The notes: generated by a model not told the origin, from the letters alone. A stretch of DNA of 64,000 nt from Octopus vulgaris (GCA_951406725.2 OX597815.1:48670001-48734000); one strand, 5' to 3'; counted from the stretch's first letter, positions 5,690 to 56,834 are shown. Translations and numbers: made by a program.

Positions 5690-6385
5690 CATTACACAAG
5701 AGCAAGATAATCAATGAAGCCAGCAAACAATCACCAAGCAAATATATAAATATCCAAACGCCAGAAGACTTGACTTTAAGACCCATTGTAGCTGGGCCGG
5801 CTTGTGAAACCCACCGACTAAGCAATTTTCTAGATATCCTACTGAAACCCTTGCTGAAATACATCAAAAGTTTCATTCGAGATGATTTAGACATGCTAGA
5901 AAACCTACCAAAAACAATTAATGAAGAGGCAATATTGGTAACCCTCGATGTTATCAATCCTTACACCAACATCCCCCATGACTATGGAATAAAAACAATT
6001 AAATTCTGGTTGGAAAAGTACCCCGAAGTCCTCCCAGAACACATAAACCAGATCTTTATTATTGAATCCTTAAAATTTATACTTCAGAACAATTATTTCC
6101 TATTTGATGACACATACTATCATCAGAAATGCGGAATTGCGATGTGGACGAAAGCATCTCCTGTTCTTGCGAACCTAATAATGGGTAAGTTTGAATTCAC
6201 TTTATATGAAGTATCACTTCAGAAATATGGTTACTGCTTTATCATCTGGAAAGAGAACATCGACAAACTTTTGGATTTCAAAACAACACTAAATGACATA
6301 AATAGTAACATTCAATTCACAATGGAATATAACAAAGAACAACTCCCATTTTTAGACATCATGATAAAAAAAGTTAAGTCTAAGA
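5690..6385 (+). pseudogene. Penelope-like element (PLE) reverse transcriptase fragment
   Basis: ORF 5626-6414 has LRPIVAGPACETHRLSNFLDILLKPL, SFIRD, LVTLDVINPYTNIPH, NNYFLFDDTYYHQKCGIAM.TK..PVLANL and IQFTME...LPFLD, typical PLE RT motifs. The catalytic RYxDD segment is missing. It begins directly after (TA)n. Confidence 0.9.
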
Positions 6386-6732
6386 TAGAAGGGTATGATT
6401 TGAGGGAAATTTGACCGCTGTTACAGGCAGGTTGAGTGGAATTGTAATTTTCTGGATAAGTGGTTCTCTTCAAAAATTTATATTGGTTATCTCATTAATG
6501 TGTGTCAATTGGATGGTGACAAATAATCTATGCATTCAATGGTTCATACATTCCTTTCTATTTTGTATTTTTTACCTTTTTATTATTAGCACAAGGCTTG
6601 AAATTTGCTGGGAGGGGACTAGGCAATTACATTGACCCTGCTGCTTGATCAGTACTTATTTCGTCTCAGTGGTTCATGTATTGCCTGATCAAACTGCATC
6701 TTCTGTGCTTGATACATCTTTTCACTGGTTTA

Positions 6733-7160
6733 AGAGTGGCTGTGTGGTAAGTAGCTTGCTTACCAACCACATGGTTCTGGGTTCAGTCTCACTGCGTGGT
6801 ACCTTAGGCTAGTGTCTTCTACTATAGCCTCGGGTCGACCAAAGCCTTGTGAGTGGATTTGGTAGACGGAAACTGAAAGAAGCCTGTTTTATATATGTAT
6901 ATATATGTGTGTATGTATATATATGTGTGTGTATGTGTGTGTGTGTGTGTATGTTTTTGTGTCTGTGTTTGTCCCTCCAACATCGCTTGACAGACAATGC
7001 TGGTGTGTTTATGTCTCCCATAACTTAGTGGTTCGGCAAAAGAGACTGATAGAATTAAGTACTAGACTTACAAAGAATAAGTCCTGGGGGTTGATTTGCT
7101 CGACTAAAGGCGGTGCTCCAGCATGGCCACAGTCAAATGACTGAAACAAGTAAAAAGAGT
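6733..7160 (+). mobile_element. SINE family A, full length
   Basis: Same head, CORE-like segment, microsatellite and tail as 4886-5262. Confidence 0.9.
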
Positions 7161-7638
7161 AAAAAAATAAAAGGAGTAAGGATGTCAACAGACAGTCTTC
7201 AGATCCTACTGAGTTGTTCAATACTGCACGTCTTCCTTGTCCTCTCCTTCCTGCAATTGATTATCCATCTTACTGCAGATTTACATACTGGTGATTCAAT
7301 ATCATCATCACCTCTATATCAGAAGTATGGAAACTTAGTATCAGGGACAAATTGCAAGCGAATCAGTGCAATGCATCTATGCTGAAAAAAATAATACATC
7401 ACCAGTGTGACAAATTCATTATCAGCCAGCTTAGATTACTGTCTTGATTTTAAGGCTAAAACAACTGTTTTAAAAAATATTCTTTTCTGTACACATTGAT
7501 TTTTAAAGAGTTTATTAGTGAGTGAATGGATATTTAAAAGCCTTTTGATGATAAATGAGGAATTGCCCACCTTTACAAACCCTTCTTCTGTATGGTTGTT
7601 TGGCCAGTTAGGAATTGCAGTTAATTATCTCTAAGATT

Positions 7639-7943
7639 ATTTACATTATTGACATTTGACGGATATTTCTCCTTATCTTGTTTGTTGGTAACACAACGTT
7701 TCGGCTGATATACCCTCCAGCTTTCTTCAGGTGTCTTGGGGAAATTTCGAATCTGGGTTCTCATTCCTAAGGTATTCTTCGATGTTATTATTATTATTAT
7801 TATTATTATTGTTGTTGTTGTTGTTGTTGTTGTTGTTGTTGTTGTTGTTGTTCAGGTCACTGCTTGGAATCAAACTCAGAATTAGTAGCCCATGCTCTTA
7901 ACCACTATGCCATATGCCCTCATCTCTTAAATATATAACTGTG
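7639..7943 (-). mobile_element. tRNA-headed, hammerhead-bearing element (family HH2), copy 1
   Basis: Minus strand: GGGCATATGGCATAGTGGTTAAGAGC head, (AAC/AAT)n, body, hammerhead motif. TCTCTAAGATT is duplicated at 7628-7638 and 7944-7954. Confidence 0.8.
7690..7735 (-). ncRNA. Minimal type-I hammerhead ribozyme motif (HH2; mismatch at the base of stem II)
   Basis: GACAC-CUGAAGA-A-AGCUG(loop)CAGCC-GAAA-CGUU-GUGUU. Confidence 0.7.
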
Positions 7944-53690: not shown

Positions 53691-55034
53691 TTAAGTATAT
53701 CATTACTGGAATCATGGGATCGAATTTATCAACTGACCCCAGACACCCAAACTTCAGACTTTGTACTTTTATTCTAAATGCTATTATTAATATGTGTTAG
53801 CGGACTTCAGAATCATTAAAGCATCAGGAAATAAATGCCTTGTATTTGTGATTGAGTAGAATAACTGAGTGGCTAGTCTTGAATTTTTTGAGCTTTTTAA
53901 TAGATCAACTAAGAACTTCAAGTTTGTATTTTTGATTAATTAAACAAATAAATTTGCTTTCCATCCTTCAAGGGTTGACTGTATAAGAACTACTCAAGTA
54001 TTAGGCTTGATAACCAACTTCCCCAAAATATATTTAACTTTTGCTTTGGTCATAAATGAATTATTTTACCAAATTTGAAGAGATGAGAGGCAGTGCTGAT
54101 TCAAGCAATATTTGGAACTCAGAATATTAAATTCTCCTCAGATTGGAGTTCAGTTCTGCTTGATTTCTTAGTGATTTAACTTCAATTATATCAGTAATAC
54201 CCTAGAGAACTCACCCTCACCAACCTCCCCCCACTCCAAAAAAAAAAAAAAAGCACTATCTCCTATCTTCTGTAAGTACCTTTACAAGTCCAAGATTCTG
54301 TACCTAAGAATCTTTGGATCTTAGAACTGAAAACCAAAAACTAAAATAAACTATGTAGTCTGTCCTTTCCCTATTATGTCACCTTTTTATCATCATCATC
54401 TCCACTGCCACTATCATAATAATCAACAACAACAACAAGTAGCTAATAACCCATTACTGTTGCTTTAGAGTTCAGATTTTAAGGCTATTCTCAAGACCCT
54501 TTCATAAGTTTTCTGTGATGCATATGTATAACACAAACACAGACACTCATATTCACAATGATGTGTTGTTTGTTTGACTGAACAATTACATAAATTTGCA
54601 AAGTGATAGATAAACTGACAAAGAAATGCTATCTCACTGTCATTATCCGTGGTGTCTGTTGTGAGGCTATAAATTAACGTAGTCTATAAATGATATTGTC
54701 AATAAATTACATAGACTATAAATTATATAGTCTATCAGTCTATCTATCTAATGATTTAATAATAGACATCACACCTACATCATTTGTACTAATACAGTAA
54801 ATTACACACTAAAGTGATTGAAATTGCAAGAGATGACAAAATCTATAAAAACAATTTGGGTTTTATTGATTTATATATATTTTTTTCAAACCATATTAAA
54901 TTTTGTGACAATATCACATTTTTGATTCCTATCTAAAAACACAAAAACTCAAATGTTATTGCTTAGATCTAGACTGGTCAGGGTTAAACAGACCCATGAT
55001 CAAAAAACATTCTAGCTATCACCATATCCATGGT

Positions 55035-55405
55035 TGTGACTGTGTGGTAAGAAGCTTGTCCTCCAAACACATAGTTCTGGGTTCAGTCCCACTGTGTGGC
55101 ACCTTTGACAATTGTCTTCTGCAATAGTTTCAGGCTGACCAAAACTGTGTGAGTGGATGTAGTGGATGGAAACTGAAAGAAGCCCATCATATATGTGTGT
55201 GTATGTGTGTGTGTGTTTGTCCCCCATCTCTACTTAACAACTATTGCTGATGTGTTTATGTCCCCATAGCTTAAGGTTTCTGTAAAAGAGACTGATAGAA
55301 TAAGTATCATGATTATTAAAAAACAGTACTGGAGTTGATTCCTGTGACTAAAATTCTTCAAGGGGATTTCCCAGTATGGCCGCAATCTAATGAGTGAAAC
55401 AAGCA
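55035..55405 (+). mobile_element. SINE family A (diverged)
   Basis: Head, CORE-like segment and tail remain recognisable. Confidence 0.8.
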
Positions 55406-56440
55406 AAAAATAACAGATATGGTTTTTTTTTTTGGACAATGGTAATATCCATTATAATACTTTTTCACCAAGACATCAAAGTGCAGTTTAACCCTTTGAC
55501 ATTTAAACCAGTTATGTCTGGTTCAAATATTCTACCTGTTTCATATTCAAACCTGCCAGATTTGGCCTCCCACACTTACCTTACAGTGTGATTCTAAAAG
55601 TAAACGATAATATAATTAAAATCTCAAAGCTACAAGATAGTGCATGATAAATTCGAAACAATGTAGATAAATAAACATTACATTTGACAGAGTAATCTGA
55701 ATGCTAAATGACTGAGGGACATTTGGTTGTTATTTCTAGCAAACTCGGTGACAACCTAGACATAGAGACTCCTTTATTGGTGTTCTGAGTTCAAATTCCA
55801 CCAAGGTCAACTCTGCCTTTCCTTCTTTCCAGAGTTGAGAAAATAAGAACTGGTCATGCCCAGAGATCACTGTAATTGATTTCACAACCACCACCACCAC
55901 CACCACCACCACCATCATCATCATCATTTAACGTCTGTTTTCCATGCTGGCATGGGTTGGAAGGTTTGACAGGAGCTGGCAAGCCAGGGAGCTGCACCAG
56001 GCTCCATTGTCTGCTTTGGCATGGTTTCTATGGCGGGATGCCCTTCTTAAAGCCAACCAAATTACAAAGTGTCTAAACACAGACATCATACAGTCTGCCT
56101 TTGATTCTGAAGGGGAGGAATTTTGTCCCCAACGAAAAAAGTAACTCTCTGAATTTTGCCCAGCCTTTCATAAATTACTGGCCTTGTGACAAAATTGGAA
56201 ACTGTTACTGTTTAGGTATTATATTCACTTGTGTGCCATATTATTAATAAATAAACTTTGTGAACTATTTAAGGGTATTACCTTAAACTTATTTCTGAAA
56301 GAGAAATAACAAAGGAAAGGGGAGATGTTAACTGTAAAACTACATGACTATCTAAATTATGGTAAACTACAGGATATAAGGACAGTCAGAGTAAATGTCA
56401 GTATCTACAAGTCCATAAAACATTCCATACAAGTGTTCAA

Positions 56441-56834
56441 TATACATTATTTACATTATTTACATTCAACAGATATTTTTCCTCATCTTGTTTGTTGTTA
56501 TCACAACGTTTTGGCTGATATACCCTCCAGCCTTCTTCAGGTGTCTTGGGGAAATTTCAAACCTGGGTTCTCATTCCTGAGGTATTTTTCGACGTCATTA
56601 TTATTATTATTAGTGTTCAGGTCCTTGCTTGGAATTGAACTCAGAATCTTGGGGTTAGTAGCCTGCACTCTTAACCACTAGGGCATATGGCCTAGTGGTT
56701 AACAACATGTGGTTACCGTGTGGTTAACGTATGGCGAAATGTGTTAACAACAAACAAGATGAGGACAAATATCCGTCGAATGTAAATAAAGTAAATAATG
56801 TACATAATTCCTCATCTCTTAAATATAGAACTGT
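56441..56834 (-). mobile_element. Family HH2 element, copy 3, with a long inverted second arm
   Basis: Hammerhead motif at 56500-56545 (GAAA>AAAA), head palindrome at 56672-56701, inverted tail at 56740-56834. AAGTGTTCAA is duplicated at 56431-56440 and 56835-56844. Confidence 0.85.

What the first reader, a model, noticed from the sequence alone, without database searches (positions are those of the whole stretch)
5690..56545. Unrelated element families converge on one minimal hammerhead grammar, with a Penelope RT fossil in the same window
Seen: HH1, HH2 and HH3 share no obvious flanking sequence. All have CUGANGA, one extra nucleotide (A, A, U), a G-C-closed stem II, GAAA, a self-complementary stem III (AACGUU, AACGUU, ACUUCGAAGU) and a family-specific stem I pair (GUUU/AAAC, GACAC/GUGUU, GACAGU/ACUGUC). 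About eight motifs lie in 64 kb. Established: a loopless or palindromic stem III implies cleavage as a double (dimeric) hammerhead, and an extra base after A9 is tolerated in natural hammerheads. Inference: a very dense population of ribozyme-bearing PLE derivatives. HH1 and HH2 share AACGUU and might heterodimerise.
Basis: partly seen in the sequence, partly recalled or inferred. Interest (0 to 1): 0.75.

Follow-up and report, generated by a model that had tools for sequence, protein, structure and literature searches.

The report
Penelope hammerheads; one tRNA-promoter family
The eight motifs are real, mostly decayed end pieces of three protein-coding Penelope-type jumping-gene families that carry a known kind of predicted self-cutting RNA; the unusual part is one family that begins with a tRNA-like segment and lacks runs of four T, so it may be read by RNA polymerase III.

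Summary
The eight hammerhead motifs are in the window, but only 2 of 8 are intact (shuffle mean 0.005). Their shared "grammar" is the published minimal hammerhead of Penelope-like elements (PLEs; PMC4209133). Walking each family upstream in the genome reached its own RT-endonuclease gene: HH1 Neptune/Nematis-type, HH2 Penelope/Poseidon-type, HH3 Hydra-type (assigned by motifs, no tree). The RT fossil is the master of none: it lacks YLDD, and its family carries a fourth, A3:U8-core hammerhead. Corrections: HH3's family core is CCGACGA (U4C), with CUGA arising by CpG decay; a young HH1 subfamily is also U4C; HH1/HH2 cannot form a shared double hammerhead because stem I does not cross-pair; the window is about fourfold denser than the genome sample. 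The interesting residue is HH2. Its repeat starts with a tRNA-like A/B-box head upstream of the ORF start, 27 of 30 short copies begin there, and the 2.6-kb unit has no shared T4 run (other PLE copies 4.4 per kb; strictest control not significant). That fits Pol III transcription of an autonomous PLE. This scan noted the tRNA-headed family earlier on other DNA (e1-8669850, e1-8663237). Cleavage and transcription are untested.

The parts
5693..6377 (+). Doubly truncated RT fragment of a Neptune/Nematis-type PLE; in-frame loss of 16 residues including YLDD; no terminal repeat; not the master of HH1-3
   Evidence: (85% aa identity to L024 family)
13817..14002 (+). HH1 family 3' end; hammerhead C3 at 13857, stems II/III damaged
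34995..35205 (-). HH1 family 3' end between (TA)n; intact hammerhead, C3 at 35128
44797..45034 (+). HH1 family 3' end between (TA)n; C3 at 44874, G8A
42650..42712 (+). HH1 family terminal fragment without the hammerhead
7636..7919 (-). HH2 family pseudo-LTR: tRNA-like head, expanded microsatellite, hammerhead (C3 7730, G10.1A)
36491..36741 (-). HH2 family pseudo-LTR: tRNA-like head 36741-36660, (TAA)n, ORF start codon at 36616, intact hammerhead (C3 36582) overlapping codons 12-24
56446..56692 (-). HH2 family pseudo-LTR; C3 56540, G12A
56735..56835 (+). Inverted 5'-truncated HH2-family copy with tail, partner of the 56446-56692 copy
22760..22959 (+). HH3 family 3' end with 130 nt of upstream UTR; hammerhead core decayed (position 3 at 22890)
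49159..49339 (.). HH3 family inverted pair: long copy on - (49159-49291), short copy on + from stem I (C3 49289)
44425..44637 (-). Decayed relative of a 359-bp tandem hammerhead repeat; a ninth hammerhead-like motif with C3 at 44463
   Evidence: (71% over 105 nt to L349)

Best explanation
HH1, HH2 and HH3 are the terminal-repeat ends of three separate RT-endonuclease-coding Penelope-like element families, left as short truncated or inverted insertions, and each end carries a minimal type I hammerhead that is predicted to cut only as a same-family dimer, likely with help from the element's protein. Shown: each family extends upstream into its own RT plus GIY-YIG gene; insertions have the PLE signature (5' truncation, inverted partner, optional 3' tail, (TA)n targets for HH1 and HH3); most copies are decaying. 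Inferred: the element protein primes reverse transcription inside the RNA downstream of the hammerhead, cDNA synthesis often stops or switches template near the RNA 5' end, and two tandem repeats in one transcript pair their palindromes and exchange stem I strands to form a double hammerhead. In the HH2 family the repeat begins with a tRNA-like head followed by the start codon. The head likely marks the transcription start and may be a Pol III promoter (about 0.4).
For: HH1: two loci align for 3,098 nt at 85.6% from RT through GIY-YIG to HH1 (2 of 10 long loci fetched). HH2: 28 of 30 loci found with the ORF-end query continue into the tRNA-like head; in 12 of 30 loci found with an ORF N-terminal query a same-strand repeat lies upstream (13 counted by the script, one is microsatellite only), and the frame runs from the hammerhead into the ORF without a stop in L390 and L399; 21 of 30 copies have an inverted partner. 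HH3: L347 and L346 align for 2,136 nt at 72.7% over decayed RT-EN, and L347 ends in HH3 plus (TA)n; CxCX5C linker read by hand from L325, the Hydra mark in PMC8557442 section 11. The only common non-CpG change inside HH2 is at free position N7 (A 43, T 36 of 82), which is also a Glu/Asp wobble. Same-family stem I gives 4+4 (HH1) and 5+5 (HH2) pairs. Literature: min-HHR monomers inactive and dimers weakly active (PMC4209133); the Poseidon_Ac hammerhead overlaps the ORF start, needs the protein, and RT starts internally (PMC11167929).
Against: No cleavage or expression data. The double-hammerhead fold is not the predicted minimum: HH1 -7.3 against -23.1 and HH2 -24.3 against -33.0 kcal/mol, and the HH1 monomer prefers a fold that buries GAAA. 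No compensatory change is seen inside HH1 or HH2 (column counts); the fossil's family shows one double change, not above shuffle (208 of 500, 5 distinct rows). HH3 5' ends lie at positions -1 to +13 in 25 of 30 copies, not at the predicted cut. In Poseidon_Ac, hammerhead mutants still insert in vitro and no RNA ends mapped to the cut. Clades were assigned by motifs only; all HH1-3 masters seen are broken.
Confidence: 0.85

Rival explanations
1. The HH2 family is an autonomous PLE transcribed end to end by RNA polymerase III from the tRNA-like head in its pseudo-LTR; the same promoter yields the many short SINE-like copies (an addition to the best explanation, not an alternative to it).
For: Head resembles genomic tRNAs (score 66 against at most 50 in 1000 shuffles; best match tRNA-Arg(UCU) among a partial tRNA set). 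A box in 21, B box in 25, both in 17 of 30 copies (recalled consensus patterns). 27 of 30 copies start within -12..+9 of the head start, as do 6 of 6 copies not selected for it, 3 of them the window's own. Loose ends in public contigs agree only as far as the head start. In 67 kb of aligned family sequence no T4 site is shared by more than 2 copies (0.39 runs per kb), whereas 9 copies of other PLE families of similar T content have 2.7-7.3 per kb; TT observed/expected is 0.76-0.86 against 1.10-1.29.
Against: With dinucleotide-preserving shuffles the T4 deficit is not significant (P 0.07, 0.10, 0.37, 0.45); with mononucleotide shuffles only 2 of 4 copies reach P<0.01. No head-less Poseidon-type family was found as a clade-matched control in the 1.8 Mb held. 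ARAGORN (0 of 30 loci) and Rfam do not call the head a tRNA. How an uncapped 2.6-kb RNA would be translated is unexplained.
Confidence: 0.4
2. The tRNA-like head is a captured passenger in the 5' UTR of a Pol II-transcribed PLE; it drives at most short non-coding transcripts, and the sharp 5' ends reflect a Pol II start or an RT stop.
For: D. virilis Penelope has an intron-overlapping internal promoter (passage in PMC8557442). HH3, which has no tRNA head, also shows a sharp 5' boundary (25 of 30). The T4 deficit is explained by low TT frequency.
Against: A and B boxes are kept in most copies, and low TT is confined to this family among the families compared.
Confidence: 0.45
3. One reading: unrelated elements converged on one grammar, are mobilised by one RT such as the fossil, and HH1 and HH2 cleave as heterodimers.
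For: The three RTs are very distant and HH1/HH2 share the ACGU palindrome. U4C recurs in two clades, which is a real case of parallel change.
Against: Each family has its own ORF. The fossil family has an A3:U8 core without the extra base in 12 of 12 copies. Cross-family stem I gives 1 and 0 pairs. Other families here use U3:A8 cores (21 of 30 GIY-YIG loci; also L012, L018, L019).
Confidence: 0.05
4. The motifs are conserved protein-binding or structural RNA signals whose cleavage is vestigial.
For: U4C lowers activity in vitro (PMC3088659 passage) yet marks the youngest HH1 copies (CpG kept 46 of 47 against 213 of 266) and all of HH3. Competing folds. Cleavage was dispensable for Poseidon_Ac insertion in vitro.
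Against: Across families the 3:8 pair covaries (C:G, A:U, U:A) and G5, A6, A9, GAA, A15.1-U16.1 and H17 are kept, as catalysis requires.
Confidence: 0.15

Closest known systems
Minimal type I hammerheads in pseudo-LTRs of metazoan PLEs (Cervera and de la Pena 2014, PMC4209133; parts 1-2 of 4 read, supplements not seen)
   Same: Extra base between 9 and 10.1, G10.1-C11.1, palindromic 15.2-16.2, short helix I, many sequence families per genome, mostly single truncated copies, opposite-strand pairs, U3:A8 variant.
   Different: Family-wide U4C cores (HH3, young HH1) and an A3:U8 core are not mentioned in the parts read; the copy estimate here (about 90,000 for three families, decayed copies included) exceeds the 9,000 descriptor hits given for X. 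tropicalis, but the counting methods differ.
Poseidon_Ac of the green anole (Frangieh et al. 2024, PMC11167929; parts 1-2 of 4 read)
   Same: Hammerhead overlaps the ORF start; 3' tail between two RT start sites about 110 nt into the ORF; tandem pLTR-ORF layout.
   Different: The HH2 family has a tRNA-like A/B-box head in front of the start codon; none is described for Poseidon_Ac in the parts read.
Hydra-clade PLEs (Craig et al. 2021, PMC8557442; passages and section 11 read)
   Same: C-terminal EN, CxCX5C linker, (TA)n insertions, hammerhead present.
   Different: HH3 has a U4C core and a 3' UTR of about 900 nt; only decayed copies were found.
Schistosome Sm-alpha/Sj-alpha SINE-like repeats (seen only through the review PMC6765202, passages)
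   Same: Pol III-type promoter combined with a type I hammerhead in a dispersed repeat.
   Different: Those are non-coding tandem units; here the promoter-like head belongs to a protein-coding element.
tRNA- or 5S-containing LTRs of Helenus, Ajax and Cassandra (PMC10886601; abstract start and a term search only)
   Same: Small-RNA-gene-derived segment inside a terminal repeat.
   Different: Those are non-autonomous LTR elements; the HH2 family is a PLE with its own RT-EN.
Animal non-LTR retrozymes (PMC7229834 passages; bioRxiv 10.64898/2026.07.22.740005 parts 1-2 of 5)
   Same: Type I hammerheads in PLE-related repeats; the 359-bp array at L349 and its decayed window relative fit this kind.
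   Different: HH1-3 are ends of coding elements, not tandem non-coding units.

Membership tests
Minimal type I PLE hammerhead | Core boxes C3-A9 and G12-A14, A15.1-U16.1, H17 | tested here: met
   Met at family level: HH2 and most HH1 are CUGANGA; HH3 and 12 of 82 HH1 copies are U4C. Intact in 2 of 8 window copies.
Minimal type I PLE hammerhead | Extra base between 9 and 10.1; G10.1-C11.1; palindromic 15.2-16.2 | tested here: met
   for HH1-3; the fossil's family lacks the extra base.
Minimal type I PLE hammerhead | Located in the terminal repeat of an RT-EN element | tested here: met
Minimal type I PLE hammerhead | Covariation of stems within a family | tested here: inconclusive
   None in HH1/HH2 column counts; one double change in the fossil's family, 208 of 500 shuffles as high. 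Formal pair counts for HH1/HH2 were not run.
Minimal type I PLE hammerhead | Self-cleavage as dimer | not testable with these tools
   Needs an in vitro assay.
Neptune/Nematis-type PLE (HH1 master; fossil's family) | RT, CX2-5CxxC linker, C-terminal GIY-YIG with CCHH, (TA)n targets | tested here: met
   Translations; Pfam RVT_1 and GIY-YIG on longer relatives of the fossil; flanks.
Penelope/Poseidon-type PLE (HH2 master) | RT plus GIY-YIG with CCHH and no Zn-finger linker; ORF starts in pLTR; tail; inverted partners | tested here: met
Hydra-clade PLE (HH3 master) | CxCX5C linker, (TA)n insertion, hammerhead | tested here: met
   L325 read by hand; L347.
Hydra-clade PLE (HH3 master) | Absence of CCHH; DKT and RWK motifs | tested here: inconclusive
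   Copies too decayed.
PLE clades (all four families) | Placement in an RT phylogeny with reference elements | not tested
tRNA-derived SINE (short HH2 copies) | tRNA-related head with A and B boxes at the 5' end | tested here: met
tRNA-derived SINE (short HH2 copies) | Separate non-autonomous lineage whose head is absent from the partner element | tested here: not met
   The head is part of the ORF-bearing element (28 of 30). It works like a SINE but is not filed as one.
tRNA-derived SINE (short HH2 copies) | Transcription by RNA polymerase III | not testable with these tools
   Only indirect sequence signs.
Non-LTR retrozyme | Tandem array of short non-coding units, each with a hammerhead | tested here: not met
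   HH1-3 copies are single or inverted pairs; the L349 array does meet it.

The most novel reading that the evidence does not exclude
An autonomous Penelope/Poseidon retroelement has taken a tRNA gene into its pseudo-LTR and is transcribed over its whole 2.6-kb coding unit by RNA polymerase III, with its sense strand purged of T4 terminators. The same promoter makes SINE-like short copies, so SINE and partner are one element, and the hammerhead that overlaps codons 12-24 could switch the RNA between message and template.
Probability: 0.4. Interest if true: 0.75.

Novelty: new variant of a known kind. Interest (0 to 1): 0.45.

Why it matters
The grammar and density are ordinary for an animal genome rich in PLEs. 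Two things could matter. First, a protein-coding retroelement read by Pol III would break the usual split between Pol II autonomous elements and Pol III passengers, show a direct route from PLE to SINE, and give a natural test of how an uncapped RNA is translated. I found no such case in searches, but most subscription papers and Repbase entries are not held. Second, U4C cores in two distant PLE lineages, including the youngest HH1 copies, are missed by CUGANGA descriptors and offer a natural pair (U4 against C4 in one family) to test whether cleavage rate matters to PLE spread.

Tried and rejected
Rfam gave no hammerhead hit among the 150 of 287 rows shown for the window nor among 3 rows around 36582; min-HHRs are not well covered by it. 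Pfam gave 0 families for the fossil. Identity with the octopus OR2 SINE is unlikely because OR2 is described as a CORE SINE, but I had no OR/OK sequences and the 1994 paper is not held. A GIY-YIG family search found no HH2 or HH3 master in 30 loci. A splice-acceptor explanation of the HH3 5' boundary was considered; two internal deletions seen do not follow GT-AG, so it is left open. RNA runs: no RNA holder listed; only contigs could be laid, which cannot show starts, strand or level. Lünse et al. 2016 is not held and was seen only as cited in PMC6765202. PMC13343379 has no occurrence of tRNA, Pol III or Penelope. Rows dropped before counts: L112 and L114 as opposite-strand duplicates in the HH3 alignment, L299 and L309, the reference copies L389 and L280.
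Full report
Setting. The window lies in a 2.8-Gb animal assembly (G000:C2:48670001-48734000), probably an octopus (taken from earlier scan notes; not verified by me). It is rich in microsatellites and short repeats.

Observation. Self-comparison finds three HH1, three HH2 and two HH3 copies. A strict min-hammerhead descriptor accepts 2 of 8 (35128, 36582) against a shuffle mean of 0.005 (200 shuffles); in 40 fixed 10-kb genome stretches it gives 12 hits against 0.1. 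The motifs are therefore real, but six of eight are damaged. By similarity the three families occur 13 times in the 400-kb sample (HH1 5, HH2 6, HH3 2; inverted arms counted separately), against 8 in 64 kb here. My arithmetic gives about 90,000 copies genome-wide (Poisson range roughly 50,000-155,000) and a fourfold local excess. First-look candidate counts of 3,691, 3,295 and 1,971 are lower bounds.

HH1. Thirty best copies are about 200 nt, mostly flanked by (TA)n. Two extended 5'; searching with that extension led through a CA-rich 3' UTR of about 1.8 kb to RT and GIY-YIG remains in 2 of 10 long loci. These two align for 3,098 nt at 85.6% from RT to HH1 and show a CX4CxxC linker, the Neptune/Nematis mark in PMC8557442 (passages). 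Twelve of 82 copies, and 8 of 21 not selected by a query, have CCGACGA with no CCAA forms; they keep 46 of 47 CpGs against 213 of 266 in U4 copies, so U4C marks a young subfamily.

HH2. The unit is about 250-280 nt: tRNA-like head, (TAA)n, body, hammerhead, optional tail. I first took it for a separate SINE. Note e1-8669850 suggested that it is the terminal repeat of a coding element, which I tested. Three of 30 copies extend into an endonuclease C-terminus. With that as query, 28 of 30 loci continue about 30 nt after the stop codon into the head, and L311, L312 and L313 hold broken RT-EN without a Zn-finger linker. With an N-terminal query, 12 of 30 loci have the repeat upstream on the same strand, and in L390 and L399 the frame runs unbroken from the hammerhead into the ORF. 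The start codon lies between (TAA)n and the hammerhead (window 36616), and the predicted cut falls in codon 24. This parallels Poseidon_Ac, whose cut lies 26 nt after the start codon (PMC11167929). The one common non-CpG variant inside the ribozyme is N7 (A 43, T 36 of 82), a position free in hammerheads (established knowledge) and a Glu/Asp wobble here.

HH3. Copies found with the 49289 palindrome are inverted pairs joined at stem I. Positions 4-5 read TG 14, CA 9, CG 4 of 31 arms, like the family's other CpG sites, and CA 22, TG 21, CG 18 of 72 copies overall. The family core is therefore CCGACGA, and the window's CUGAUGA is a deamination product (inference from the decay pattern; CCGACGA is seen directly in 6 of 72). 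Upstream-extended copies show the stem I 5' strand GCAGU. Two more walks reached decayed RT-EN in L347 and L346 (2,136 nt, 72.7%) with a CxCX5C linker in L325 (translated by hand), which PMC8557442 section 11 gives as the Hydra-clade mark. A natural U4C is known from a viroid and lowers activity in vitro (PMC3088659, passage).

The RT fossil. It spans 5693-6377, is 85% identical to an older genomic family, has lost 16 residues including YLDD and has no terminal repeat. It is 27% and 30% identical to the HH1 and HH2 masters and does not align significantly to the HH3 master. Its family ends in a hammerhead with an A3:U8 core and no extra base in 12 of 12 copies. Other families here have U3:A8 cores (21 of 30 GIY-YIG loci; L012, L018, L019). 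There is no single grammar and no shared master.

Dimers. In a type I hammerhead with no loop III, pairing the palindromes of two units places A15.1 of one and U16.1-H17 of the other in the same junction, so stem I forms between units (my inference from topology). The active helix is ACGU, since A14 and position 17 are unpaired core residues (established knowledge). Same-family stem I gives 4+4 (HH1), 5+5 (HH2) and 6+6 pairs (fossil family); HH1 with HH2 gives 1 and 0. The double hammerhead is not the predicted minimum-energy dimer in any case, most clearly for HH1, in line with weak, dimer-only or protein-assisted cleavage reported for such motifs. The HH3 energy used a junction-truncated copy and is not informative.

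Pol III question. The head scores 66 against the best of 40 tRNA calls in genomic loci, while 1000 shuffles reach at most 50; ARAGORN and Rfam do not call it. A and B boxes (recalled consensus) match in 21 and 25 of 30 copies. 5' ends fall within -12..+9 of the head start in 27 of 30 copies (the query required the head but not its being terminal) and in 6 of 6 unselected copies. Across the 2.6-kb unit no T4 site is shared by more than 2 copies, against 4.4 runs per kb in 9 copies of other PLE families. Against this: dinucleotide-preserving shuffles give P 0.07-0.45, because TT itself is depleted (0.76-0.86 against 1.10-1.29), and no clade-matched control was found. HH3 also has a sharp 5' boundary without any tRNA head (25 of 30 at -1..+13). 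I put Pol III transcription of the whole element at 0.4. A similar T-run avoidance was noted by this scan for a shark LINE (e1-9597669, seen after my test and not checked).

What is known. PMC4209133 (parts 1-2 of 4) lists the extra base, G10.1-C11.1, the palindrome, many families per genome, opposite-strand pairs and U3:A8, and shows dimer-only low activity. The finding as written is therefore already described in kind. Pol III promoter plus hammerhead is known for non-coding schistosome repeats (review PMC6765202, passages). Nine literature searches showed no tRNA-headed autonomous PLE; the octopus repeat annotation PMC13282606 (passages) does not mention hammerheads. Also consulted by passage: PMC10886601, PMC6962438, PMC4758252, PMC6685494, PMC5804259, PMC7229834, PMC13343379. 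No supplements were read, and they or Repbase may list these families.

Verdict. The tRNA-headed Poseidon-type family and the recurrent U4C cores are variants worth testing. Interest 0.45.

Noticed in passing
window 44425-44637 (-); L349:2300-4560: A ninth hammerhead-like motif (C3 44463) is a decayed relative (71% over 105 nt) of a young 359-bp tandem, partly inverted array with seven intact hammerheads at L349, a retrozyme-like element.
   Followed up: partly
HH3 family, L221-L250; window 49285: 25 of 30 copies begin at hammerhead positions -1 to +13, and 18 of 30 have an inverted partner. The upstream sequence resembles a branch point and 3' splice site ending in stem I, as described for D. 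virilis Penelope; unexplained.
   Followed up: partly
L011-L022, L197, L202: Young Neptune/Nematis-type families with long open frames (753, 781, 782, 811 aa), several as inverted pairs, carry U3:A8-core hammerheads.
   Followed up: partly
L008:3388(+), L013:238(+): Two further CUGACGA hammerhead families with longer stems II and III, unrelated to HH1-3.
   Followed up: no
window 4882-5260, 6734-7160 and about a dozen other places: A very abundant tRNA-derived SINE with an internal (TA)n(TG)n tract, in both orientations.
   Followed up: no
window 12355-12443 and 13457-13545; 13567-13786; 44256-44681; 49570-49630: Short inverted-repeat elements (an identical 89-nt inverted pair, and 30-nt terminal inverted repeats) that look like MITEs.
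   Followed up: no
runs X2-X5: The HH2 stretch is held in part by runs under four organism labels (A-D), so the family is shared by related species; X2 and X4 were laid.
   Followed up: partly
L395, L396, L391, L405, L410, L417: HH2-family copies in which the ORF N-terminus is followed after a few hundred bases by another repeat, i.e. short internally deleted units that could be non-autonomous derivatives.
   Followed up: no
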